A stretch of 54,996 bases of DNA from a virus (IMGVR_UViG_3300045988_171436:1-54996), one strand, 5' to 3'; positions 5,452 to 43,098 are shown, numbered from the stretch's first letter. A program made the numbers and translations. Notes: generated by a model from the letters alone, not told the origin.

Positions 5452-6144
5452 TTAATTATGTCTCTTAAGGGTTTGCGACTGACTGATTAAGACCTTTCCA
5501 AAGACCATGAATCGGTGTTCGTTTTCGCTAGTAATTCCCCATTCACGGTAAATCTGGTTATCAGAAATCACCAGCAGTTTGTCAGGAATCATTTGAAGTC
5601 TTTTAACGTATATTTTGTCATCAAAACCAAAGACATATATACCATCACCATCAAACTGATTGATGCTGACATCAACGAAGATGAGATCTCCTGGCTCAAT
5701 GGTTGGACACATACTGTCCCCACGAACGTTGATAACTTTGATGTGATTGGCTGGTCGTCCGCCGAACATTGATACAGCATTATCAGTTCTGTATTCGATG
5801 GCATGAATCACATCAATGACATCACCGCCCTGGATAAGGCCATTTCCCGCACTGGCACTGATATCCAGCATTTCAATACGGAACACATCCTTCACCTGCG
5901 CAACATCCTCATTATTACTGTTTTTATATACAGTATTACTTTTGTGGGCAGAGGTAAAGAGATCAGCAATATCAACACCTAAGCTCTTGGCAATATTACT
6001 CAGTGTTTGTTCGGTAAATTGTTTTTGCTTACCCGTTTCTAAGCGCGAGATGTTCGCCGCATCTACTCCTATTGCTTCAGCGAGATCGGCGATTTTCATG
6101 TTCTTCGCTTGGCGAAGTTGTCTGACTCGGTTTCCTATGTTCAT
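5452..6144 (-). CDS. cI: CI-like repressor (HTH-XRE plus S24 LexA-type peptidase domain)
   Basis: 230 aa; N-terminal HTH (IADLAEAIGVDAANISRLETGKQ); C-terminal GDSM serine motif and conserved Lys (VFGKVL) typical of autocleaving repressors; divergent from cro. Confidence 0.85.
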   Translation of the reverse strand: MNIGNRVRQLRQAKNMKIADLAEAIGVDAANISRLETGKQKQFTEQTLSNIAKSLGVDIADLFTSAHKSNTVYKNSNNEDVAQVKDVFRIEMLDISASAGNGLIQGGDVIDVIHAIEYRTDNAVSMFGGRPANHIKVINVRGDSMCPTIEPGDLIFVDVSINQFDGDGIYVFGFDDKIYVKRLQMIPDKLLVISDNQIYREWGITSENEHRFMVFGKVLISQSQTLKRHN

Positions 6145-12001: not shown

Positions 12002-12379
12002 TTGTGGAGAAAGTTGATGCGTGATATTCAGATGGTTCTGGATCGTTGGGGTGCATGGGCGGCGAGTGATAGTTCTGGGGTAGACTATTCGCCTATAGCT
12101 GCTGGGTTTAAAGGGCTTCTTCCCTTTACAAGCAAAACACGTCAGGCTTGTTCAGATAGTGATGCATTAATTATTGAAGGTTGTCTTGCTCGTCTAAAGC
12201 AAAAAAGACCTGAAGAACACTCGCTTCTTGTTGCCCATTACCTATACGGTATCTCTAAAAGAAAGCTCGCTAAAGCTCGCAAAAAGGATGAGAAAATAAT
12301 ACGCATTGAGATACAGATGGCTGAGGGATTTATAGAAGGTTGTCTAGCTATTCTAAATGTTAGCTTAGATATGGATTAA
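12002..12379 (+). CDS. Late antiterminator Q-like protein
   Basis: 125 aa; MRDIQMVLDRWGAWAA... N-terminus typical of small Q-like antiterminators of E. coli cryptic prophages (recalled); position before the lysis genes. Confidence 0.55.
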   Translation: MWRKLMRDIQMVLDRWGAWAASDSSGVDYSPIAAGFKGLLPFTSKTRQACSDSDALIIEGCLARLKQKRPEEHSLLVAHYLYGISKRKLAKARKKDEKIIRIEIQMAEGFIEGCLAILNVSLDMD

Positions 12380-12422: not shown

Positions 12423-12875
12423 TTATATGTGGGGTAATATCCAGTTTATTTTCCTCCAGGTACTTGCAAATGAAACTATTGATACGATCAGGGTCGAGAA
12501 ACCATATAAGGTTAGGGCGAAATCAAGTCTTACAGAGGTAATGGTGATTTTTTCATTTATAAACATAGCTATCAGCGGGAAAATACATGCTAATATTAAG
12601 GTAACTCCCGTAGATAACAGGTTATGAATAATTTTAGGTAAAATCTTGTTTTGTTTTAAAGCAAAAATAATTCCATCAGTACTTGAACTTGCAGAACTGA
12701 AGATGGAAATAGCGGCCAATACAAAACCAAACAAAATGCCTGCCACCGTAGATAACACTCCGGCTGTACTTAAGATATCAGAGTGAGCCATAGGCGCTAG
12801 GTATTTCCCAAGCACCCAAGCTAACAGCCCACTGATAACTATGTTAATTAAAACTTTAATAAGCATAATCATCAT
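12423..12875 (-). CDS. Small four-TM membrane protein (150 aa), second gene of antisense two-gene moron
   Basis: Four hydrophobic segments (about res 2-24, 38-60, 88-110, 120-140); AT-rich; 12 nt downstream of partner gene. Confidence 0.6.
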   Translation of the reverse strand: MMIMLIKVLINIVISGLLAWVLGKYLAPMAHSDILSTAGVLSTVAGILFGFVLAAISIFSSASSSTDGIIFALKQNKILPKIIHNLLSTGVTLILACIFPLIAMFINEKITITSVRLDFALTLYGFSTLIVSIVSFASTWRKINWILPHI

Positions 12876-12889
12876 CCTTAAAAATAAGA

Positions 12890-13822
12890 TCAGATTTCAT
12901 ATTGCTTTAAATACTGACCATGTTCAATTTTAGCACTGATCAAGGCAGTACGCACATCTGTTTCTTTTGCGTAGCCATCTTTTGTGTTAATGTTTTTTTC
13001 ACTGATCAGAACTTGATTGAGAAGACTCCTTGAATGAGTATTTTTAGGTTCAGTGACATTAGCTTTACGTAATAAGTGAGGAACTTTTTCTATTAATTCC
13101 TTTATTCCACTTTTTACTTCATCACTGAGATAACCACGGATTAATTTACGTTGCGATGCTCTACCTCTAAGTGATAGTTTTAAATGCGAACCGCCCATCC
13201 CAGCCATCATTTCAATCATACTTTTGGAAAATGAATTCGAAAGGTCATAATCCGTTGCGCTAAAATTACGTGGAGCGGCGAGTGTAATTTCACAGCTACG
13301 TAAAGTGCTTCCTGTTTCAAGTAGTTCTTTTACACTTTCTTTTTTCCAAATGGCCTCAAACGCTACAGGTTTGTTTTCTTCAGAAAAATTGAATAAAAGA
13401 AATGCTAAATCGGAAACTTTAGGTCCTAAATGATTTTGAGATAAAACAAGAATGTCTTTCTTATAGTAGTAAATAAAATAAGTGCGTTCGACTATATATT
13501 TTTTATCATCTAACGGAATATTGTGCTCATCCCAATTTTCATCACCAATATAAGGTAAGTGGAAACCATCACGAGAGCATGATAGATAACCAAAATAGAA
13601 CTCCGCCTGTGCGTCTTTTTCTAAGAATACAATCTTTAATTTTTTCTTATCAAACTCAGCGGTATAAGAATTTTGCGAAGGTGTAACAATGGTTGTATAC
13701 ATGTTGTCAAATGCAAGTTGTGCATTTGATGTAGTTGACTTCGTTCCTGAGGAGCTTTGGAAGAAACCGATACGCATTTTTTTTTGTTTAGTTAGTGGCG
13801 CGGAAGTGGCTGTAGTAGTCAT
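12890..13822 (-). CDS. Hypothetical soluble protein (310 aa), first gene of antisense two-gene moron
   Basis: AT-rich ORF, ATG at 13822, no motif recognised by eye. Confidence 0.6.
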   Translation of the reverse strand: MTTTATSAPLTKQKKMRIGFFQSSSGTKSTTSNAQLAFDNMYTTIVTPSQNSYTAEFDKKKLKIVFLEKDAQAEFYFGYLSCSRDGFHLPYIGDENWDEHNIPLDDKKYIVERTYFIYYYKKDILVLSQNHLGPKVSDLAFLLFNFSEENKPVAFEAIWKKESVKELLETGSTLRSCEITLAAPRNFSATDYDLSNSFSKSMIEMMAGMGGSHLKLSLRGRASQRKLIRGYLSDEVKSGIKELIEKVPHLLRKANVTEPKNTHSRSLLNQVLISEKNINTKDGYAKETDVRTALISAKIEHGQYLKQYEI

Positions 13823-14476: not shown

Positions 14477-15529
14477 ATGAAAAATACTGTAAAAATAAAC
14501 AGTGTTGATTTAATCAACGCTGATTGCCTGCATTTTATTCAGTCCCTGCCTGATGATTCCATTGACCTGATTGTTACCGATCCGCCGTACTTCAAGGTGA
14601 AACCCAACGGCTGGGACAATCAGTGGAAAGGGGACGAAGATTACCTTAAGTGGCTGGACCACTGTCTGGCCCAGTTCTGGCGGGTGTTAAAACCTGCCGG
14701 AAGCCTTTACCTGTTCTGTGGGCATCGCCTGGCATCTGATATTGAGATCATGATGCGTGAACGTTTCAACGTGCTTAACCATATCATCTGGGCGAAGCCG
14801 TCCGGACGTTGGAATGGGTGTAATAAAGAAAGTCTGCGCGCATATTTTCCTGCCACAGAGCGCGTTCTGTTTGCTGAACATTACCAGGGGCCATATCGCG
14901 GCAAAAGTGACGGCTATGCGGCAAAAGAAAGGGAACTCAAACAGCACATAATGGCACCGCTGATATCGTATTTCAGGGATGCTCGTGCCGAACTGGGTAT
15001 AACGGCAAAACAAATTGCCGAAGCCACAGGTAAGAAAAATATGGTTTCCCACTGGTTTGGTGCCAGTCAGTGGCAGTTGCCGAATGAGGCTGACTATCGG
15101 AAGTTACAGGCTCTGTTTTCCCGTATAGCGGCAGAGAAGTTTCAGGAACAACAACTGGAACAACCACACCACCAGCTGGTGGCATCTTATGATTCACTGA
15201 ATCGCAAATATTCTGAATTGCTGGATGAGTTTAAATCTCTCCGGCGCTATTTCTCCGTATCAGTCTCCGTGCCTTATACCGATGTCTGGACGCATAAGCC
15301 CGTTCAGTTCTACCCGGGTAAACATCCGTGCGAGAAACCGGCGGATATGCTCCGGCAAATAATCAATGCCAGTAGTCGACCTGGTGATCTGGTTGCTGAT
15401 TTCTTTATGGGATCCGGTTCCACAATAAAAGCAGCAATGGCGCTGGGGCGTCGGGCGTTAGGTGTTGAACTTGAGTCAGAGCGGTTTAATCAGACGGTGA
15501 AAGAGGTAAGTGAACTGGTGGGGAAATAA
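14477..15529 (+). CDS. DNA methyltransferase (N6-adenine/N4-cytosine, beta class)
   Basis: IVTDPPYF (motif IV) upstream of FFMGSGST (motif I FxGxG). Confidence 0.8.
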   Translation: MKNTVKINSVDLINADCLHFIQSLPDDSIDLIVTDPPYFKVKPNGWDNQWKGDEDYLKWLDHCLAQFWRVLKPAGSLYLFCGHRLASDIEIMMRERFNVLNHIIWAKPSGRWNGCNKESLRAYFPATERVLFAEHYQGPYRGKSDGYAAKERELKQHIMAPLISYFRDARAELGITAKQIAEATGKKNMVSHWFGASQWQLPNEADYRKLQALFSRIAAEKFQEQQLEQPHHQLVASYDSLNRKYSELLDEFKSLRRYFSVSVSVPYTDVWTHKPVQFYPGKHPCEKPADMLRQIINASSRPGDLVADFFMGSGSTIKAAMALGRRALGVELESERFNQTVKEVSELVGK

Positions 15530-27978: not shown

Positions 27979-28127
27979 CGGCTGAATACCTCACTGATCG
28001 CTTCTTTGACTGCGCCAGCTACTGGCGCATTAATCCCTTCGAATTGCTGAATATGCCGATCAGTGAAATTCCCTTGCTGGTCAGTCAGGCAAACAGGATA
28101 GAGCAGGAGAAACGCACACATGGCTGA
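27945..28127 (+). CDS. Tail assembly chaperone -1 frameshift extension
   Basis: -1 frame ORF overlapping the 3' end of the chaperone gene. Confidence 0.5.
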   Translation: MACGWFFPPGLTAEYLTDRFFDCASYWRINPFELLNMPISEIPLLVSQANRIEQEKRTHG

Positions 28128-29952
28128 ATTTGAGCTTAAGGCGTTGATCACCGGTGTCGACAGGCTTTCTCCCGCGCTGTCGAAAATGCAAAAGAAAATC
28201 CGGGGATTTAAACGCCAGGCGGAAGAAGCGTCACAGGGTGGGCTGGCGCTTGGTGGCGGACTGGCAGCGGGTCTGACGCTTTCCCTGAAATCTTATGCCG
28301 ATCAGGAAAACGCCGCCACCGGGCTGAAAGTCGCCATGATGGATGCGAACGGCGAGGTCGGAAAGAGCTTTCAGGACATCAATAAACTGGCTATTGGCCT
28401 GGGTAACCAGCTACCCGGTACAACGGCTGATTTTCAGAACATGATGCAGATGCTGGTGCGTCAGGGGATCCCGGCAGAAAACATTCTTGGCGGTGTGGGT
28501 AAAGCGACGGCTTATCTTGCGGTACAACTGAAAAAAACACCGGAAGCGGCTGCTGAGTTTGCCGCAAAGATGCAGGATGCTACCGGAACGGCGTCAGAAG
28601 ACATGATGGGGCTGTTCGACACTATCCAGAAAGCGTTTTATCTGGGCGTTGACGATACCAACATGTTGTCCTTCTTCACTAAAACCAGTTCTGTTCTGAA
28701 GATGGTGAATAAGGACGGTCTTCAGGCTGCACAGAGCCTTGCCCCTATCAGCGTCATGATGGATCAGATGGGGATGAACGGGGAGTCGGCAGGTAATGCC
28801 CTGCGAAAAGTTATCCAGTCCGGATTAAGCGTTAAGAAAATCAGGGACGTCAATAAAGTCATGGCCCGCCAGAAACTCGGAGTGCAGCTCGATTTTACTG
28901 ACGGCAAAGGGAGTTTTGGCGGTCTTGATAACATGTTTAAGCAACTGGCAAAGCTGCGAAAACTGACCGACGTTAAGCGAACCGGTGTACTTAAGGCAAT
29001 ATTTGGTGATGATGCTGAAACCCTTCAGGTGGTCAATGCTCTGATCGATAAAGGAAAGGATGGTTACGATCAGATCCAGCAGAAGATGAATAAACAGGCC
29101 AGCCTGAATAAACGTGTTCAGGCACAGCTTGGTACGCTGTCCAACCTGTGGGAGGCAATGACGGGGACCGCAACTAACGGTCTTGCAGCTATTGGCGGCG
29201 CATTTTCTGGTGACGCCAAAAATATCACGCAATGGCTGGGGGAGTTAGGGGAAAAATTCACGAAGTTTGCGGATGAAAATCCCAGGGTTATTCGCGGCGT
29301 CGTCGGGCTTGCTGCCGGTCTTGCGATTCTGAAACTGGGATTGATGGGCGTTGGCGGTGCCATCAGTATTGTCAGCAGGATTATGTCGATGACGCCGATT
29401 GGCATGATTGCGACGGCGATAGCCCTGGCTGCGGGATTAATTATCACTAACTGGGATGTTGTCGGACCTTATTTTAAGAAACTCTGGGAAACCATTGGTC
29501 CTTATTTTGAGGCTGGCTGGGAACTTCTTAAGAAGGTTTTTGCCTGGTCGCCGCTGGGGATAGTGATCAATAACTGGGGACCGGTTGTTAAGTGGTTTCA
29601 GGATATGTGGGACAAGCTGAAGCCAATTATTGAGTGGTTTACCGACAGTTCCGGTGACACGGTCGATGCCATTAACTCTGCGCAGTGGGGCGCGGGTGCT
29701 TATGATGCTTATGGGACGGGAATACCGGCGCGGGGATACACACCTTATCCGGCGGTAGATCCGGCTCAGTCAAACAACGCCTCCGATGCCACAGGCCCGA
29801 ATCCCTTCATGATTAACAAAGCTATCGCGCCAAAAGTTGATGGCGAGATCAAGGTTTCATTTATGAATATGCCACCAGGTATGCGGGTTACGGAAACACG
29901 TTCCAGTGGCATTGATATTAATCACGATGTTGGGTACACCAGATTTAGGTAA
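28120..29952 (+). CDS. Tail tape measure protein
   Basis: 610 aa, Ala/Gly-rich, hydrophobic central segment. Confidence 0.8.
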   Translation: MAEFELKALITGVDRLSPALSKMQKKIRGFKRQAEEASQGGLALGGGLAAGLTLSLKSYADQENAATGLKVAMMDANGEVGKSFQDINKLAIGLGNQLPGTTADFQNMMQMLVRQGIPAENILGGVGKATAYLAVQLKKTPEAAAEFAAKMQDATGTASEDMMGLFDTIQKAFYLGVDDTNMLSFFTKTSSVLKMVNKDGLQAAQSLAPISVMMDQMGMNGESAGNALRKVIQSGLSVKKIRDVNKVMARQKLGVQLDFTDGKGSFGGLDNMFKQLAKLRKLTDVKRTGVLKAIFGDDAETLQVVNALIDKGKDGYDQIQQKMNKQASLNKRVQAQLGTLSNLWEAMTGTATNGLAAIGGAFSGDAKNITQWLGELGEKFTKFADENPRVIRGVVGLAAGLAILKLGLMGVGGAISIVSRIMSMTPIGMIATAIALAAGLIITNWDVVGPYFKKLWETIGPYFEAGWELLKKVFAWSPLGIVINNWGPVVKWFQDMWDKLKPIIEWFTDSSGDTVDAINSAQWGAGAYDAYGTGIPARGYTPYPAVDPAQSNNASDATGPNPFMINKAIAPKVDGEIKVSFMNMPPGMRVTETRSSGIDINHDVGYTRFR

Positions 29953-29984
29953 AGACGAACAGGGAGGGCCGCCCCTCCCTGAAC

Positions 29985-30431
29985 TTACTGTGCGAACACG
30001 CAATTTCGGCCTGATGGGGAGCCGACAATTCTGGACATTTTTTCGCAAATAACAGTTACTTGTTCTCCTTTTTTAAGAGCAGCAGCTGTTGATTTTTCAG
30101 AGTCTTGCATTTCCATTCTTGCTGGCATGAATTCATTTTCAGTTCTGAATTTAATAATTATAGAGTCAGTAAAGTCCTTATCAATGGATTGTACGATACC
30201 TCTAACGGCGATTAATTTACCTTTTAACTGTTCATCGGTAGCGACTTCATTTTCTTCATACTGTTTAAACAGCTGTCGAGCAGTAGTGTTGTAGATTTCT
30301 TTTTGCGGTGCCGCAGCTTCCGTATCGGATGAGTATGAAGAATTAGAGCCTTTATCGTTATTGCCTGCAAAATATCCAATAATCACCAACCCGATGAAAA
30401 TATATAAAATCCATTTTAATAATTTCTTCAT
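29985..30431 (-). CDS. Membrane-anchored OB-fold (tRNA_anti-like) protein, antisense moron in tail cluster
   Basis: N-terminal MKKLLKWILYIFIGLVIIGYFAG anchor; ...YEENEVATDEQLKGKLIAVRGIVQSIDKD... pattern of tRNA_anti-like OB-fold proteins (recalled); AT-rich. Confidence 0.55.
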   Translation of the reverse strand: MKKLLKWILYIFIGLVIIGYFAGNNDKGSNSSYSSDTEAAAPQKEIYNTTARQLFKQYEENEVATDEQLKGKLIAVRGIVQSIDKDFTDSIIIKFRTENEFMPARMEMQDSEKSTAAALKKGEQVTVICEKMSRIVGSPSGRNCVFAQ

Positions 30432-30541
30432 GTTATCACCTTAATGCTAATGATTTATATAGTTACAAATGGTAATGGCTACCACTACAAATTATGGCAT
30501 TACCAGTAAATATTACTACTGATAATAAATATGGGACTTAT

Positions 30542-31870
30542 ATGACGTGGAAAGACAGGCTTCAGGATGCGTCATTTCGCAGCGTGCCGTTTAAGGTTGA
30601 AGAAGAAAGTGCGGGAACCGGTCGTCGTGTGGAAACACATGAATACCCGAACCGCGACAAACCCTATACCGAAGACCTGGGGAAAATCACTTTCCGCCCG
30701 TCCATCACGGCTTATGTGGTGGGAGATGACTGCTTTGACCAGCGTGATCGCCTGATTGAAGCGCTGAATAAACCCGGTCCCGGCACGCTTGTCCATCCGA
30801 CATACGGTGAGTTGAAAGTCTGTGTTGACGGGGAAGTTCGGGTCAGCACATCGAAGAGTGAAGGGCGTATTGTCCGCTTTGACCTGAAGTTTGTCGAAGC
30901 GGGAGAACTCTCTTACCCCACATCAGGCGTGGCGACGGCGCAGACGCTGATGTCATCCTGTTCTGCACTGGATGACTGCATCAGTGACAGCTTCAGCGGT
31001 TTCAGTATCGATGGCGTGGCGGATTTTGTGCAGAACGACGTTATCGGTAATGCCAGCACAATGCTTGGGTATGTTTCTGATGCGATGAAAGTGGTGGATT
31101 CTGCTGTATCGGATGCCGCCAGGCTGTTGCAGGGGGATATCTCGGTACTTATGCCGCCGCCATCGTCAGGAAAAAATTTCGTTGAGCAGGTGCAGAAAAT
31201 GTGGCGTACCGGAAAACGCCTTTATGGTAACGCCAGCGACTTGGTCACCATGATCAAAACGCTTTCTGGTGTCAGCCTCGGCAGCGATTTGCAACCGCGC
31301 GGCGTCTGGAAAACGGACAGTAAAACCACCGCCACAGCGACGCAGCAGCGTAACATGGTTGCCAGCACCCTTCGTACGACTGCAATCAGCGAAGCGGCGT
31401 ATGCCGTTACCCGATTGCCTGCGCCAACAACTTCTGCGGTGATGCAGAATGCCGCAGTGGGGCAGTCAACAACACCCGCGCAGAGCTCCGGCTGGCCTGC
31501 CGTCACGCATCCGGTGCTGAACAATGCACCGGCGGTGAAAAACACGGTTGACCTGCCAACGTGGGAAGAACTGACCGACATTCGCGACACACTGAATACG
31601 GCAATTGATAAGGAGTTGTCCCGTACAACCAGTGATGCGCTGTTTCTGGCGCTGCGCCGGGTGAAAGCAGATCTGAATGCGGATATCAACACGCGCCTTG
31701 AACAGTCTGCTCGGATCATTCAGCGCACGCCGGATGAGGTTTTACCCGCGCTGGTGCTGGCGGCGACCTGGTTTGATAACGCGGCGCGTGACGCGGACAT
31801 TATCCGGCGTAATGCCATTACGCATCCCGGTTTTGTGCCGGTGATCCCTCTGAAGGTGCCAGTGCAATGA
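30542..31870 (+). CDS. DNA circulation protein (Mu N-like)
   Basis: MTWKDRLQDASFRSVPFKV N-terminus; position after tape measure. Confidence 0.65.
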   Translation: MTWKDRLQDASFRSVPFKVEEESAGTGRRVETHEYPNRDKPYTEDLGKITFRPSITAYVVGDDCFDQRDRLIEALNKPGPGTLVHPTYGELKVCVDGEVRVSTSKSEGRIVRFDLKFVEAGELSYPTSGVATAQTLMSSCSALDDCISDSFSGFSIDGVADFVQNDVIGNASTMLGYVSDAMKVVDSAVSDAARLLQGDISVLMPPPSSGKNFVEQVQKMWRTGKRLYGNASDLVTMIKTLSGVSLGSDLQPRGVWKTDSKTTATATQQRNMVASTLRTTAISEAAYAVTRLPAPTTSAVMQNAAVGQSTTPAQSSGWPAVTHPVLNNAPAVKNTVDLPTWEELTDIRDTLNTAIDKELSRTTSDALFLALRRVKADLNADINTRLEQSARIIQRTPDEVLPALVLAATWFDNAARDADIIRRNAITHPGFVPVIPLKVPVQ

Positions 31871-37145: not shown

Positions 37146-38213
37146 TTAATGAAATTTATCTCGGATGAATTGTTGCGATGGTTTTTCAATGAATATATAT
37201 GACATATAGCTAATTGCCATTAATGTAAGCATGAATAAAATGAATACCTTGGGGCTGTAAAAAAGATCGCGTCCATAGCCAATCTTGTCAGCTAAATAAA
37301 CAACAATGATTTGTAAAGGAAAATGTAAAAGATAAGATGAATAACTGATATCGCCCAACCATTCAATTTTTTTCCCAAAATCGTTTCGTATTGCGCTAAT
37401 TGATACAAGGAAAAAGATTATGGAGGTAAATCCGAATAAGATAATTGAGAATATATCTGCTACTTGCAGGGTAAAGATAACTCCCCATGAGATCAATAGA
37501 AAAACACAAGCAAAAATAAAAAATAACTTTGCGCTAATATTTTTTATGGCCGCAATCGTAATTTTATAAGTCAGACCACCAATAAAGAAAGAGAATGCGC
37601 CGATCATTATGGGATTGTTAATTTTGAAAAAGTAGTACGACAATGCAACTATTAAAATTGATATGAATGTTGTTTTTGATGTGAACTTGCATAATATAAA
37701 AAATATCATGTACATAAGTACTTCAATCGACACGGACCATGTCGGGGCGTTGAAGGACCAACCTCGCTCAAATCCCCATGATTGAATCATCAATAAATTC
37801 AGAATGGCATGGTAAATGTCATTCATAGGATAAACAAAAAAATAATTATGACTTTTAAAGAAAATAATTTGTAATATTGCCACGGCAGCAAATGTAAATA
37901 TATAAAGTGGATATAATCTACTGACACGGTTAACTATAAAAGTTTTTGCTGAGGTTTTATTGCTGTGTATATTGTCAGCGTATAGATAAAAAAATATGAA
38001 TCCAGAAATCATAAAAAACAATTCGACAGCATATAAACCGTAATGATAAAAGACGGAAAAAAATTCATAAAAAGGTTGGCGGTTTATGATTATGTCAGAT
38101 GCAGCATTCTTTTTCATAAAAAAATGTTGCCAATGCCATAACACAACGGAAAGTGCGGCAAATCCTCTCAGAACATCCAGGGTATATATTCTCTTCCCAA
38201 AAACATTCGTCAC
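37146..38213 (-). CDS. Integral-membrane acyltransferase (acyltransferase-3 family; O-antigen acetylase-like)
   Basis: 355 aa, about 10 TM segments, N-terminal LDVLRGFAALSVVLWH motif; very AT-rich. Confidence 0.8.
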   Translation of the reverse strand: MTNVFGKRIYTLDVLRGFAALSVVLWHWQHFFMKKNAASDIIINRQPFYEFFSVFYHYGLYAVELFFMISGFIFFYLYADNIHSNKTSAKTFIVNRVSRLYPLYIFTFAAVAILQIIFFKSHNYFFVYPMNDIYHAILNLLMIQSWGFERGWSFNAPTWSVSIEVLMYMIFFILCKFTSKTTFISILIVALSYYFFKINNPIMIGAFSFFIGGLTYKITIAAIKNISAKLFFIFACVFLLISWGVIFTLQVADIFSIILFGFTSIIFFLVSISAIRNDFGKKIEWLGDISYSSYLLHFPLQIIVVYLADKIGYGRDLFYSPKVFILFMLTLMAISYMSYIFIEKPSQQFIRDKFH

Positions 38214-38764: not shown

Positions 38765-39634
<870 letters not shown>

Positions 39635-40101: not shown

Positions 40102-41487
40102 ATGGATAGTGTCAGTAGTGTTGAGCGTTTAAGAACAAAAGCTTTTTATCAGTTGCTTGTGGATAGGCTTGGAACTGAGGCCTGGGCTGCTCGCAAAGCT
40201 GCATATTTCAAGCGCATAAGAGAGAAGGAGGCTAAGTTTAACATCAATCTGCCGATAGAGCCCCAGCTCTTCATACCAGCAGAAGATGACATCGACTGGT
40301 ACATTCTGGCGTCGTATCTGTCTCATGATTTTCCATATAGTGATGCTACTTACAGCAGCAGACGTATCTACCCCTATGCTATGGCCATCGGAGCTGTTGC
40401 AGACCAGCTTCGCAAAGTCCCATACGTCGATGATGTTCTGGACAAAATGCTAGCAAATAACAATAAACCAGAAACTCAAATTTTTGAGCTGCTGACGGCA
40501 TCGTTCTACCTAAAGAACGGCTATGAGGTTGCCTTCATCCCAGAAAGCAGCATTGTTTGGCCCGATGGAAAGACCAAAAAATCACCGGATATGCTTGTCA
40601 AGTTAGGTGATCTGGAGTTCTACGTCGAGTGCAAAAGGTCGGATAAGCAAACCAAGTACTCAAAGACAGAAGAGCAAGCCTGGGCCAACATCTGGCATCA
40701 ATTGAGCCAACATATGCTCAAAGTCGCACCATGGAACATTGTCGATATAATTTTCCATGAGCAGGTCGCCAGTGTGACTCCGGCAGACGTTATTAAAGCG
40801 GTGAATCTAGCCATTAAAGGGGGGACGGGAAAAGCTAATGAAGGTTCAATCAGTGTGGGAATACGAGCCATCGACAAATTAGGTCTCAGACGTCACTACA
40901 GAAAATTTTCAGTCAGAGCCAATAGCCCACAGCATGAATTGCTGGTATTTGGGGATCTAGATAGCAATGAGAAACGAAGTATCTCGACTATCGCTCAGAG
41001 AGTTATTCGTCCTGGCACCAATAACGATATTCTCAACATTTTTGTAGAGGATGTTGCAAAGTGCGTTGGAGCTCAGTGGCGCTGCGATCATGAGATTTCT
41101 CTTGGCCTCAGATCCAAGCATTTCAAGAGCTTGCTCAATGATGGAGTCATGCAGATTCCCCCTGATCGTGCTGGCGTGGTGCATATTTGGTATGAGACTT
41201 GCGAAGGCATAGATATTGAAGAACTACGTAGGGATAAAAACATGGAGCATATCTCGGCCTACGATGCCTCTAAAACAACTGTGTTGGGTGCTTTCCTGCA
41301 TGCCGTTAATTATTACCCATTAGAGGACAACTATGAGTGGGCTGAGACTGTTCAAGACTTTGCCCGTGTCCCGGATTTGATGGGGCTCTTCCTTAGACAG
41401 CCATTGATGCTTACATCTGACTCGACGCGTGGGGTCGAAGGTGTCACACATTGGGAGCAAGATAAGGCCGCAAAAAGCATGCGTTGA
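40102..41487 (+). CDS. PD-(D/E)xK nuclease-like protein with large unknown C-terminal region (461 aa)
   Basis: ELLTASFYLKNGYEV ... SPDMLVKLGDLEFYVECKRSDK gives the E / PD / ExK triad spacing. Confidence 0.5.
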   Translation: MDSVSSVERLRTKAFYQLLVDRLGTEAWAARKAAYFKRIREKEAKFNINLPIEPQLFIPAEDDIDWYILASYLSHDFPYSDATYSSRRIYPYAMAIGAVADQLRKVPYVDDVLDKMLANNNKPETQIFELLTASFYLKNGYEVAFIPESSIVWPDGKTKKSPDMLVKLGDLEFYVECKRSDKQTKYSKTEEQAWANIWHQLSQHMLKVAPWNIVDIIFHEQVASVTPADVIKAVNLAIKGGTGKANEGSISVGIRAIDKLGLRRHYRKFSVRANSPQHELLVFGDLDSNEKRSISTIAQRVIRPGTNNDILNIFVEDVAKCVGAQWRCDHEISLGLRSKHFKSLLNDGVMQIPPDRAGVVHIWYETCEGIDIEELRRDKNMEHISAYDASKTTVLGAFLHAVNYYPLEDNYEWAETVQDFARVPDLMGLFLRQPLMLTSDSTRGVEGVTHWEQDKAAKSMR

Positions 41488-42264: not shown

Positions 42265-43098
42265 TCAGTTAGTAACGTCGGAATCTTCATTCTCAGAATG
42301 ACCCTTTCTCCAGCCCGCTGCAAATTCAGACGGTGTCTGATAATTCAGCGTGGAGTGCGGGCGGCATTCGTTATAATCCTGCCGCCAGTCATTAATAATT
42401 TTCCTGGCATGAACGATATCGCTGAACCAGTGCTCATTCAAACATTCATCGCGAAATCGTCCGTTAAAGCTCTCAATAAATCCGTTCTGCGTTGGCTTGC
42501 CCGGCTGGATTAAGCGCAACTCAACACCATGCTCAAAGGCCCATTGATCCAGTGCACGGCAAGTGAACTCCGGCCCCTGGTCAGTTCTTATCGTCGCCGG
42601 ATAGCCTCGAAACAGTGCAATGCTGTCCAGAATACGCGTGACCTGAACGCCTGAAATCCCAAAGGCAACAGTGACCGTCAGGCATTCCTTTGTGAAATCA
42701 TCGACGCAGGTAAGACACTTGATCCTGCGACCGGTGGAAAGTGCGTCCATGACGAAATCCATCGACCAGGTTAGATTGGGCGCCGCCGGACGGAGCAGCG
42801 GCAGACGTTCTGTTGCCAGCCCTTTACGACGTCTTCTGCGTTTTACGCCCAGACCACTGAGGTGATAAAGCCGGTACACGCGCTTATGATTAACATGAAG
42901 CCCTTCACGGCGCAGCAACTGCCAAATACGACGGTAGCCAAAACGCCTGCGCTCCAGTGCCAGCTCAGTGATGCGCCCTGATAAATGCGCATCAGCAGCC
43001 GGACGGTGAGCCTCATAGCGGCAGGTCGACAGGGATAAACCTGTAAGCCTGCAGGCACGACGTTGCGACAGACCGGTCGCATCACACATCAACATCAC
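42265..43098 (-). CDS. IS3-family transposase OrfB (DDE integrase domain)
   Basis: DDE-type catalytic region (WSMDFVMD ... TDQGPEF ... [16 protein letters not shown]). Confidence 0.85.

What the first reader, a model, noticed from the sequence alone, without database searches (positions are those of the whole stretch)
29985..30505. Antisense OB-fold membrane-anchored protein inserted between tape measure and baseplate genes, with a palindromic site in its promoter region
A 148-aa AT-rich gene on the opposite strand interrupts the otherwise co-directional tail operon. It has an N-terminal membrane anchor and a soluble domain resembling tRNA_anti-like OB-fold proteins. A 9-bp inverted repeat (TGGTAATGG ... 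GCATTACCA, 30470-30505) lies between its start and the next tail gene, and a GC-rich stem-loop (29961-29980) separates it from the tape measure gene. A lysogen-expressed envelope protein at this position is a candidate superinfection-exclusion factor.
Basis: partly seen in the sequence, partly recalled or inferred. Interest (0 to 1): 0.6.

Follow-up and report, generated by a model that had tools for sequence, protein, structure and literature searches.

The report
Sie2009-like exclusion gene in prophage tail
An E. coli prophage carries an optional, backwards-facing gene between two tail genes; it encodes a membrane-tethered periplasmic protein related to Sie2009, a dairy-bacterium phage protein known to stop other phages injecting their DNA, so it is probably an anti-phage gene of a known kind that has never been tested in E. 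coli.

Summary
The gene is real: window 29985-30431, minus strand, 148 aa, AT-rich, between the tape measure gene and the DNA-circularization gene of an SfV-type E. coli prophage. It has its own minus-strand terminator, a strong ribosome-binding site and a conserved extended -10-like element. The protein has an N-terminal membrane helix, a variable Ser/Thr linker and an OB-fold (Pfam PF12869, 68.6 bits) with two invariant cysteines. The gene is optional. About 1,100 of 5,426 E. coli genomes carry this tail module and only 79 carry the gene. Phages SfI, SfII and SfV have an empty site, so it is not a tail part. Elsewhere, homologues usually sit just downstream of the prophage repressor, which implies expression in lysogens. 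The "9-bp palindrome" is 8 bp, is expected by chance about 8% of the time, and is not conserved. Function remains untested. Verdict: a new Gram-negative member of a known kind, of moderate interest.

The parts
28120..29952 (+). Tail tape measure gene (610 aa), left flank of the insertion site
   Evidence: ORF; RefSeq annotation of a 99.9% identical locus; PF10145 PhageMin_Tail on the identical protein in L021
29953..30541 (-). Moron cassette: terminator, gene, ribosome-binding site and promoter region. It replaces the ~61-nt spacer found at the empty site of SfI/SfII/SfV-type phages
   Evidence: Alignment with the empty site and with three diverged alleles; present in 79 versus ~1,100 E. coli genomes with the tail module; low GC
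29960..29981 (-). Intrinsic terminator hairpin of the inserted gene (CAGGGAGGG-GCGG-CCCTCCCTG, then TTCGTCTTTA down to ~29950)
   Evidence: The GGGAGGG/CCCTCCC stem is kept with different loops in allele 2 and in Buttiauxella. There is no T-run on the + strand
29985..30431 (-). CDS, 148 aa, Sie2009-family membrane-anchored OB-fold protein (stop codon 29985-29987)
30363..30431 (-). Residues 1-23: MKKLLK plus a hydrophobic helix. Predicted N-in membrane anchor; no lipobox cysteine
   Evidence: Read from the sequence; AF2 helix 2-22; homologues carry a cytoplasmic zinc ribbon N-terminal to this helix
30300..30362 (-). Residues 24-44: Ser/Thr/Asn-rich, length-variable, disordered linker
   Evidence: pLDDT below 50 for residues 26-37; hypervariable in alignment A1; pN 0.25-0.50 against 0.09-0.22 in the OB domain
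29988..30299 (-). Residues 45-148: OB-fold domain with the YxxNEVAxD motif and invariant C129/C144
   Evidence: PF12869; AF2 pLDDT 95-98; Foldseek top hit 3F1Z; invariant columns
30436..30442 (-). Shine-Dalgarno sequence AAGGTGA, 4 nt before the ATG
   Evidence: Read from the sequence; kept as AGGTGA in allele 2 and L042
30491..30499 (-). Candidate extended -10 promoter element TGCCATAAT, ~59 nt upstream of the ATG
   Evidence: TGC-nATAA(T/A) is the one block conserved in the upstream regions of four alleles whose synonymous sites are saturated. The consensus scan did not call it because the -35 is weak
30470..30505 (.). 8-bp inverted repeat TGGTAATG-N20-CATTACCA, straddling the candidate -10 and the predicted transcript start. 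Probably fortuitous
   Evidence: shuffle P about 0.084; not conserved
30542..31870 (+). DNA-circularization (Mu gpN-like) tail gene, right flank; start revised to 30542
   Evidence: RefSeq start; alignment; PF07157 DNA_circ_N

Best explanation
This is a moron: a self-contained accessory cassette dropped antisense into the spacer between the tape measure and DNA-circularization genes of an SfV-type E. coli prophage with a Mu-like contractile tail. It encodes a bitopic inner-membrane protein. The short N-terminus is cytoplasmic, one helix crosses the membrane, and a flexible ~20-residue linker tethers an OB-fold domain in the periplasm. That domain is probably stabilised by a C129-C144 disulfide. 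The protein belongs to the same family as Sie2009 of Lactococcus phage Tuc2009.

The most likely function is the same as Sie2009's. The protein would be made constitutively from its own promoter while the tail operon is silent in the lysogen. It would sit at the outer face of the cytoplasmic membrane and stop superinfecting phages after adsorption, at the genome-entry step. It could do this by binding a distal tail or ejection component such as a tape measure protein, or by masking the membrane trigger for DNA entry.

Shown here: the gene, its selection, its cassette structure, its optional presence, family membership and fold. Inferred: topology, disulfide, expression in the lysogen. Hypothesised: the exclusion phenotype and its target.
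For: Family and fold. PF12869 matches at 68.6 bits. PHROG 8545 'superinfection exclusion Sie-like' matches at E 1.3e-49. The AF2 model has pLDDT 86.8 and shows a TM helix, a disordered linker and an OB barrel. The top PDB match is 3F1Z, an exported Klebsiella lipoprotein.

Link to a characterised exclusion protein. Tuc2009 orf2 lies between int and cI and encodes Sie2009. It hits PF12869 at 43.3 bits against a cutoff of 23.5. It aligns to the family profile over anchor, linker and OB core at 97.8% probability, E 1e-12. [quoted passage not shown]

Moron anatomy. GC dips to 0.33-0.40. There is a minus-strand terminator, a Shine-Dalgarno sequence and a conserved extended -10-like element.

Optional presence. 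SfI, SfII and SfV share the tail module at ~96% identity with an empty site. The gene is in 79 E. coli genomes against ~1,100 with the module.

Expression in lysogens, by context. In 186-like prophages the homologue starts 17 nt after cI on the same strand. It lies downstream of the repressor in Burkholderia phage Carl1 and in Bordetella phages. Across 43 distinct viral contexts, the upstream ORFs are dominated by CI, HTH, Cro-like and CII regulators.

Topology. Lysines precede the helix, and some homologues have a Cys4 zinc ribbon before it. A cysteine pair is invariant in the proteobacterial homologues.

Selection. pN is 0.09-0.22 in the OB domain while pS is saturated. In Pantoea the gene is intact inside a decayed prophage whose cI is fragmented.

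Precedent. The HK97 gp15 moron lies next to the tape measure gene and encodes an inner-membrane exclusion protein (PMC3594210).
Against: No experiment exists for any proteobacterial member. Homology to Sie2009 is remote (26% identity over the aligned region), and PF12869 is a very large family: 7,665 representatives at E <= 1e-3. The family cannot all have one function; it includes chromosomal lipoproteins and is related to TcdC. PADLOC has no model for it. The consensus scan called no sigma-70 promoter upstream of the gene. About a quarter of E. coli carriers have a 143-bp deletion that removes the promoter, ribosome-binding site and anchor, so loss is tolerated. Sie2009 acts against siphoviruses of a Gram-positive host. 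Whether the same fold can act across a periplasm, or against contractile-tailed phages, is unknown. Cleavage of the N-terminal helix as a signal peptide could not be excluded with these tools.
Confidence: 0.55

Rival explanations
1. It is a lysogenic-conversion or host-fitness envelope protein unrelated to phage exclusion. Examples would be a periplasmic oligosaccharide- or ligand-binding protein that affects envelope stress, serum or colicin resistance or colonisation, or a TcdC-like membrane regulator.
For: PF12869 is huge and mostly uncharacterised. Its founding structure, 3F1Z, is a chromosomal Klebsiella lipoprotein. C. difficile TcdC relates to the same family and is not an exclusion protein (PMC3575817). 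The other cargoes at the same junction are also envelope-targeted and of unknown function. The prophage also carries an O-antigen-type acyltransferase.
Against: The closest characterised relative with the same full architecture is an exclusion protein. The gene travels almost exclusively with temperate-phage immunity or tail modules. TcdC homologues in Lactobacillus phages occupy the cI-int slot typical of sie genes.
Confidence: 0.2
2. It is an abortive-infection protein of the AbiP/PdpSau type. A membrane-anchored OB-fold would sense phage nucleic acid or protein and collapse the membrane potential, killing the infected cell.
For: Membrane-anchored OB-fold proteins from prophages or plasmids that cause abortive infection are described: PdpSau in S. 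aureus and AbiP in Lactococcus (PMC10127798). OB-folds classically bind nucleic acids.
Against: Predicted topology puts the OB domain outside the cytoplasm. The lysines lie on the N-terminal side, some homologues have a cytoplasmic zinc ribbon before the helix, there is an invariant cysteine pair, and the family founder is an exported lipoprotein. The protein is only 148 aa and has no effector domain. Relatedness to AbiP or PdpSau was not tested.
Confidence: 0.12
3. It is a decaying or neutral hitch-hiker with no current function in this prophage.
For: It is present in only ~7% of loci with this tail module. About a quarter of those copies carry a promoter and anchor deletion, and one is truncated by IS1.
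Against: There is strong purifying selection on the OB domain over saturated synonymous divergence. Two alleles only 71% identical are kept intact at the same site in near-identical backbones. The gene stays intact in Pantoea after the neighbouring cI has decayed. The terminator, Shine-Dalgarno sequence and -10 element are conserved.
Confidence: 0.08
4. It is a virion, tail-assembly or late-function component of this phage.
For: Only its position inside the tail gene cluster.
Against: It is on the opposite strand with its own terminator. It is absent from the plaque-forming relatives SfI, SfII and SfV and from about half of the sampled E. coli loci. The same slot holds unrelated genes in other loci. 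In other phages the homologues lie in the immunity region.
Confidence: 0.02

Closest known systems
Sie2009 (orf2 of Lactococcus phage Tuc2009) and related lactococcal prophage Sie proteins
   Same: Same Pfam family PF12869. Profile alignment gives 97.8% probability, E 1e-12. The architecture is the same: a basic N-terminus, one membrane helix, a Ser/Thr-rich linker and an OB domain with the Y-x-x-N-x-x-A-x-D-x-x-x-KGK signature. Both are small and prophage-borne. Many homologues of the window protein occupy the equivalent slot next to the repressor.
   Different: The host is Gram-negative, so the OB domain is periplasmic rather than surface-exposed. The proteobacterial clade has an invariant cysteine pair that Sie2009 lacks. 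In this window the gene is antisense in the tail operon of a contractile-tailed phage, not between cI and int. No phenotype is known.
HK97 gp15 moron (E. coli)
   Same: A moron in a tail operon, directly beside the tape measure gene. It is expressed from the prophage, inserts in the inner membrane and blocks genome entry without touching the receptor (PMC3594210).
   Different: It is unrelated in sequence (YebO family per the paper) and much smaller, with no OB domain. It lies on the other side of the tape measure gene. This is functional analogy only.
Ltp of Streptococcus thermophilus phage TP-J34
   Same: An extracytoplasmic, membrane-tethered prophage protein that blocks DNA injection. Escape mutations map to the tape measure protein (PMC10883804). 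One predicted phage protein in BFVD is named for the Ltp-type lipoprotein and structurally matches this OB domain (name only, not verified).
   Different: Ltp is a lipoprotein with helix-turn-helix-like repeat domains. The window protein has no lipobox cysteine, and its only other Pfam match at E <= 1 is a sub-threshold KOW hit, so there is no Ltp-domain match.
PDB 3F1Z, Klebsiella pneumoniae 'putative nucleic acid-binding lipoprotein' (founder of PF12869)
   Same: Best structural match to the predicted OB domain: Foldseek E 4e-5, TM-score 0.65 on the target. It is also exported.
   Different: It is a lipoprotein rather than helix-anchored, shares only 17-20% identity, is chromosomal and has no known function.
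Clostridioides difficile TcdC
   Same: It has an N-terminal membrane anchor and a C-terminal OB-fold that hits PF12869 by profile comparison. Its homologues in Lactobacillus and Leuconostoc phages lie between cI and int (PMC3575817).
   Different: It has a dimerisation region and is discussed as a regulator of toxin expression. It was not compared directly here.
P22 SieA and T4 Imm
   Same: Inner-membrane proteins of Gram-negative phages that block DNA entry (PMC10883804).
   Different: They are polytopic or unrelated proteins. Apart from a weak match to phrog_4980 (E 0.013), only weak N-terminal (anchor-region) matches to other 'superinfection exclusion' PHROGs were seen.

Membership tests
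Pfam PF12869 tRNA_anti-like OB-fold family | Score above the curated gathering threshold | tested here: met
   68.6 bits against a cutoff of 23.5, E 5.7e-19, residues 2-130
Pfam PF12869 tRNA_anti-like OB-fold family | OB-fold barrel resembling the founding structure 3F1Z | tested here: met
   AF2 pLDDT is 95-98 over residues 45-148; 3F1Z chains are the five best PDB matches, E 4e-5 to 1e-4
Sie2009-type superinfection exclusion proteins | Detectable homology to Sie2009 | tested here: met
   hhalign of A1 against Tuc2009 orf2 gives 97.8% probability, E 9.9e-13 over 136 columns; both are in PF12869
Sie2009-type superinfection exclusion proteins | Small protein with a hydrophobic N-terminus (membrane association) | tested here: met
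   148 aa; MKKLLKW plus 17 hydrophobic residues; AF2 helix 2-22. Physical membrane association cannot be tested here
Sie2009-type superinfection exclusion proteins | Gene located in the lysogeny module beside the repressor | tested here: not met
   In the window the gene lies in the tail operon, ~24 kb from cI at 5452-6144. The feature is met by many homologues: Carl1, Bordetella phages, 186-like prophages
Sie2009-type superinfection exclusion proteins | Expressed from the repressed prophage | not testable with these tools
   Only indirect evidence: own terminator, Shine-Dalgarno sequence, conserved -10-like element, antisense orientation
Sie2009-type superinfection exclusion proteins | Blocks DNA injection while adsorption is unaffected | not testable with these tools
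   Needs plating, adsorption and DNA-entry assays
Moron (Juhala et al. 2000; Cumby et al. 2012) | Extra DNA absent from otherwise collinear relatives | tested here: met
   SfI, SfII and SfV, and about half of the sampled E. coli loci, have a 61-nt spacer instead
Moron (Juhala et al. 2000; Cumby et al. 2012) | Base composition different from the neighbours | tested here: met
   GC 0.33-0.40 against 0.47-0.58
Moron (Juhala et al. 2000; Cumby et al. 2012) | Own terminator | tested here: met
   Minus-strand hairpin 29981-29960 plus a T-rich tail, -20.4 kcal/mol; the stem is conserved in other alleles
Moron (Juhala et al. 2000; Cumby et al. 2012) | Own promoter | tested here: inconclusive
   The consensus scan found none upstream. 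TGC-nATAA(T/A), an extended -10-like element, is conserved ~59 nt upstream in four diverged alleles. The transcript start is not mapped
Ltp-type exclusion lipoproteins (TP-J34) | Lipobox with an acylated cysteine, and Ltp repeat domains | tested here: not met
   There is no cysteine before residue 129. The only other Pfam match at E <= 1 is a sub-threshold KOW hit
AbiP/PdpSau membrane-anchored OB-fold abortive-infection proteins | OB domain faces the cytoplasm and binds nucleic acid | tested here: inconclusive
   Sequence-based topology points outward: N-terminal lysines, homologues with a zinc ribbon before the helix, an invariant cysteine pair. There is no experimental topology and no direct sequence comparison with AbiP or PdpSau
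Catalogued anti-phage defence systems (PADLOC-DB 2.0) | Match to any model | tested here: not met
   No families at E <= 1

The most novel reading that the evidence does not exclude
Membrane-tethered extracytoplasmic OB-fold proteins of the Sie2009/PF12869 type may form one ancient exclusion family that temperate phages use in both Gram-positive and Gram-negative bacteria. In this reading the OB domain directly captures a component that every tailed phage must pass through the envelope, either the tape measure or ejection proteins or the leading DNA end. The tape measure/DNA-circularization junction of SfV-type prophages would then be a swap site for envelope-acting anti-phage cargo. That cargo would include three further uncharacterised proteins found there: a 176-aa anchored protein, a 225-aa lipoprotein and a bPH_1 protein.
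Probability: 0.25. Interest if true: 0.65.

Novelty: new member of a known kind. Interest (0 to 1): 0.42.

Why it matters
Sie2009-type exclusion has been known since 2002, but its mechanism is still described as unknown (PMC10883804, PMC7693887). One reason is that lactococcal hosts and phages are hard to manipulate. A clear homologue in E. coli prophages offers a tractable system for finding the target and the step that is blocked. It comes with natural controls: an empty site, two diverged alleles and a natural anchor-less deletion. It would also show whether this exclusion works across a periplasm and against contractile-tailed phages. In practice, RefSeq names the gene only "OB-fold protein" and defence-system catalogues miss it, so prophage-mediated resistance relevant to phage therapy and phage typing in E. 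coli, Klebsiella, Serratia, Pantoea and Burkholderia may be under-annotated.

Tried and rejected
1. Palindrome as an operator. It is 8 bp, not 9. The shuffle probability is 0.084. It is not conserved in allele 2, Buttiauxella or L042. There is no paired copy elsewhere in the window, including the cI-cro region. I rejected it as evidence of regulation. The 8-mer itself occurs 7 times against 1.7 expected, which remains unexplained.

2. Lipoprotein. RefSeq names some homologues "OB-fold putative lipoprotein", but this protein has no lipobox cysteine.

3. Known defence system. PADLOC returned nothing.

4. Solved structures by sequence. Neither the single sequence nor the profile found anything. 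Only the fold search found 3F1Z.

5. Other cargoes at the same junction as diverged OB proteins. hhalign probabilities were 0.05-0.25%, so this was rejected.

6. Structural tail protein. Rejected because SfI, SfII and SfV have empty sites.

7. Pantoea copies as evidence for a purely chromosomal, non-phage gene. Rejected: the locus is 89% identical to a 186-like prophage segment and retains a fragmented cI.

8. Literature searches for PF12869, tRNA_anti-like, "OB-fold" with superinfection exclusion, and SfV morons found no study of a proteobacterial member.

9. The consensus sigma-70 scan found no promoter upstream. The only promoter-like site on the minus strand lies inside the gene and was ignored.

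Full report
**What is in the sequence.** Window 29985-30431 holds a 148-aa ORF on the minus strand. It lies between the tape measure gene (28120-29952, +) and the DNA-circularization gene, a Mu gpN-like tail gene. All neighbouring head and tail genes are on the plus strand. GC falls to 0.33-0.40 over the gene and its upstream spacer, against 0.47-0.58 in the flanks.

The 32 nt between the two convergent stop codons are filled by a hairpin at 29960-29981 (9-bp stem, 7 G-C pairs). Its T-rich tail lies on the minus strand. It folds at -20.4 kcal/mol, z -3.1. On the plus strand no T-run follows it, so it should terminate the inserted gene and not the late operon.

A strong Shine-Dalgarno sequence (AAGGTGA, 30436-30442) precedes the ATG. 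The next tail gene most likely starts at 30542. This is the RefSeq start in a 99.9% identical locus and the point from which all related loci align. The upstream spacer is therefore 110 bp at 28% GC.

**The palindrome.** The repeat is 8 bp perfect (TGGTAATG at 30470-30477 and CATTACCA at 30498-30505), not 9. An inverted repeat of that quality appears in 8.4% of shuffles of the spacer. It is not conserved in three diverged alleles at the same site. I do not treat it as a regulatory site.

What is conserved among those alleles is TGC-nATAA(T/A), about 59 nt upstream of the ATG (window 30491-30499, minus strand TGCCATAAT). This is an extended -10-like element. The synonymous sites of these alleles are saturated, so its conservation is meaningful. 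However, the transcript start is unmapped, and the consensus scan, which requires a -35, did not call it.

**The protein.** Pfam PF12869 (tRNA_anti-like) matches at 68.6 bits against a cutoff of 23.5. PHROG 8545, labelled "superinfection exclusion Sie-like", matches end to end at E 1.3e-49. PADLOC has nothing.

An alignment of 26 homologues shows four parts:
- a basic N-terminus (MKK..KW);
- a hydrophobic helix;
- a length-variable Ser/Thr/Ala-rich linker;
- a conserved domain with the motif YxxNEVAxD and two invariant cysteines (C129, C144).

Some homologues, including a Klebsiella phage protein, carry a Cys4 zinc ribbon N-terminal to the helix. That fixes the N-terminus in the cytoplasm and, by inference, the OB domain outside it. 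There is no lipobox cysteine.

AlphaFold2 (mean pLDDT 86.8) gives a helix at 2-22, a disordered segment at 26-37 and an OB barrel at 46-146 with pLDDT 95-98. The best solved-structure match is 3F1Z, the exported Klebsiella lipoprotein on which the Pfam family is based. The best viral matches are phage "tRNA_anti-like" proteins.

In the OB domain pN is 0.09-0.22 while pS is 0.74-0.87. The linker is much freer, with pN 0.25-0.50. This is a real, constrained protein.

**Link to a characterised function.** I fetched Lactococcus phage Tuc2009. Its orf2 lies between int and cI. This is sie2009, the first lactococcal superinfection-exclusion gene. [quoted passage not shown]

Sie2009 hits the same Pfam family at 43.3 bits, E 3.5e-11. 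It aligns to the profile of the window protein's family over anchor, linker and OB core with 97.8% probability, E 1e-12. The homology is remote (26% identity) and the family is very large: 7,665 representatives at E <= 1e-3. Shared function is therefore likely but not assured.

**It is an optional cassette, not a tail part.** The window is an SfV-type prophage. It has an integrase at 67-1230, an S24-type repressor at 5452-6144, HK97-like head genes and a Mu-like contractile tail.

Its tail module occurs in about 1,100 of 5,426 complete E. coli genomes. The inserted gene occurs in 79. Phages SfI, SfII and SfV share the flanks at about 96% identity and have an empty site. That site is a 61-nt spacer with a plus-strand hairpin and T-run, annotated as a terminator in SfII.

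I examined an evenly spaced sample of 60 of the 1,104 matching records.

| State of the junction | Records | Notes |
|---|---|---|
| Empty | 29 | 61-nt spacer |
| 176-aa membrane-anchored protein | 13 | Unrelated; three loci verified, the rest inferred from identical span |
| OB-fold gene | 5 | The gene studied here |
| bPH_1 protein | 1 | Unrelated |
| 225-aa lipoprotein | 1 | Unrelated |
| Only the right-hand flank matched | 11 | State of the junction not determined |

So the junction is a cargo swap site, and three of its four cargo types are envelope-targeted.

A second OB allele, 71% identical in protein and 74% in DNA, sits at exactly the same site and orientation in backbones whose flanks are 95-97% identical. 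A 73%-identical copy occupies the same site in Buttiauxella.

Roughly a quarter of E. coli carriers, including strain 042, have a 143-bp deletion that removes the -10 element, the ribosome-binding site and the anchor. One copy is truncated by IS1.

**Where homologues live.** A scan of IMG/VR gave 80 loci in 43 distinct contexts. I scanned the two ORFs upstream of the homologue in each context. They are dominated by immunity-region regulators: HTH_3 in 14, YdaS/Cro-like in 10, Phage_CI_repr in 8, Phage_CI_C in 7, CII in 6 and Ogr/Delta in 4. These counts are of proteins and they overlap. Downstream ORFs are often P2 gpD and gpU.

Specific contexts:
- In 186-like prophages the gene starts 17 nt after cI on the same strand.
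- In Burkholderia phage Carl1 and in Bordetella phages it lies downstream of the repressor.
- In one context a LexA-like CI precedes it.
- In Klebsiella phage ST405-OXA48phi1.2 it is antisense among baseplate genes.
- In one IMG/VR contig it is antisense beside a tape-measure-like gene; that Pfam hit is below the curated threshold.
- In Serratia it is at a prophage end.
- The apparently chromosomal Pantoea copies near yebY are 89% identical to a 186-like prophage segment. They retain a cI broken into small ORFs while the OB gene is intact.

Co-transcription with the repressor in many phages is the best available evidence that the family is expressed in lysogens.

**Most likely mechanism.** By analogy with Sie2009, the protein would be made from its own promoter while the tail operon is silent. 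The same analogy holds with the functionally similar HK97 gp15 moron, which also sits beside a tape measure gene, inserts in the inner membrane and blocks genome entry (PMC3594210).

The protein would be anchored in the inner membrane with the OB domain on a flexible tether in the periplasm. It would interfere with the channel-forming or DNA-entry step of superinfecting phages. It could do so by binding a distal tail or ejection protein, or by masking the membrane trigger. I put this at about 0.55.

The cassette anatomy, optional presence, fold, family and selection are shown. The topology, disulfide and expression are inferred. The phenotype is hypothetical.

**Rivals.**
- A phage-unrelated envelope or regulatory function, as for TcdC or the Klebsiella lipoprotein: 0.2.
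- An AbiP/PdpSau-like abortive-infection protein (PMC10127798): 0.12. This is disfavoured by the outward topology and the lack of any effector domain.
- A neutral passenger: 0.08. This is disfavoured by purifying selection.
- A tail component: 0.02, effectively refuted.

**Novelty and score.** The kind is known: Sie2009-type exclusion, and morons in tail operons. PHROGs already labels the family "Sie-like". I found no study of any proteobacterial member. RefSeq calls it only "OB-fold protein", and PADLOC lacks it. It is therefore a new member of a known kind.

The value is practical. It provides an E. coli system, with natural null and variant alleles, for a mechanism that is still unsolved in lactococci. 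Interest is 0.42.

Noticed in passing
window 29953-30541 and loci L004, L005, L007, L009: The tape measure/DNA-circularization junction of SfV-type prophages is a cargo swap site. In a 60-record sample it was empty in about half. Other records held a 176-aa membrane-anchored protein (phrog_5485, ~22%), a bPH_1 protein (125 aa) or a 225-aa lipoprotein (phrog_1353). All three are on the + strand, unrelated to the OB protein and absent from PADLOC.
   Followed up: partly
window 38765-39589 (-): A GIY-YIG protein matches the known defence gene PD-T4-3 (PADLOC E 3.8e-140). It lies at the far end of the prophage, after the tail-fibre genes.
   Followed up: partly
window 12423-12875 (-) and 12890-13822 (-): An antisense gene pair sits directly after the antiterminator Q gene (12002-12379). 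It consists of a 150-aa protein with no match and a DUF6731 protein, and is followed by a DNA methyltransferase (14477-15529, +). The whole arrangement occurs in only 17 of 5,426 E. coli genomes. A close relative (NZ_CP159529) has a KwaB-like protein in that slot, so this looks like a second cargo hotspot and a possible uncharacterised defence pair.
   Followed up: partly
window 37146-38213 (-): An Acyl_transf_3 family acyltransferase, the O-antigen-modifying type typical of serotype-converting Shigella phages, lies antisense after the tail-fibre genes.
   Followed up: no
window 40102-41487 (+): A 461-aa ORF near the prophage end has no Pfam or PADLOC match.
   Followed up: no
window 42265-43098 (-): An IS3-family transposase (rve, rve_3, HTH_21) lies beyond the prophage cargo region.
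   Followed up: no
L019 (E. coli 042) 601-1046; window equivalent ~30358-30499: A natural 143-bp deletion with TTA microhomology at its ends removes the -10 element, the ribosome-binding site and the membrane anchor. About a quarter of E. coli carriers have it. RefSeq still annotates a 128-aa 'OB-fold protein' there.
   Followed up: yes
L010 7000-8480 (Pantoea chromosome near yebY) versus L049: A decayed 186-like prophage remnant has its cI gene broken into small ORFs, while the downstream OB-fold gene is intact and is shared by several Pantoea species. This suggests retention after prophage decay.
   Followed up: partly
L009 1255-1316 (empty site); SfII record: The empty junction carries a plus-strand hairpin plus T-run between the tape measure and DNA-circularization genes, annotated as a terminator in SfII. 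It is lost in the window and retained in Buttiauxella beside the insert.
   Followed up: no
window 14879, 16471, 27056, 45624, 47075 and the two repeat arms: The 8-mer TGGTAATG occurs 7 times in the window against 1.7 expected; no shuffle out of 100 reached 7. The five copies outside the repeat are single, and most fall within ORFs. This is unexplained.
   Followed up: no
L018, L015 and L042, upstream of the OB gene: At least two of the diverged alleles (L018, L015) carry their own short inverted repeat (7 bp), different in sequence, just downstream of the conserved -10-like element. This may be chance in AT-rich DNA or may reflect allele-specific 5' leader structure.
   Followed up: no
BFVD entry A0A8S5U313: A 352-aa predicted phage protein named 'Host cell surface-exposed lipoprotein' (the Ltp-type name) structurally matches the OB domain. 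This hints at a fusion of two exclusion-associated modules. The sequence could not be retrieved.
   Followed up: no
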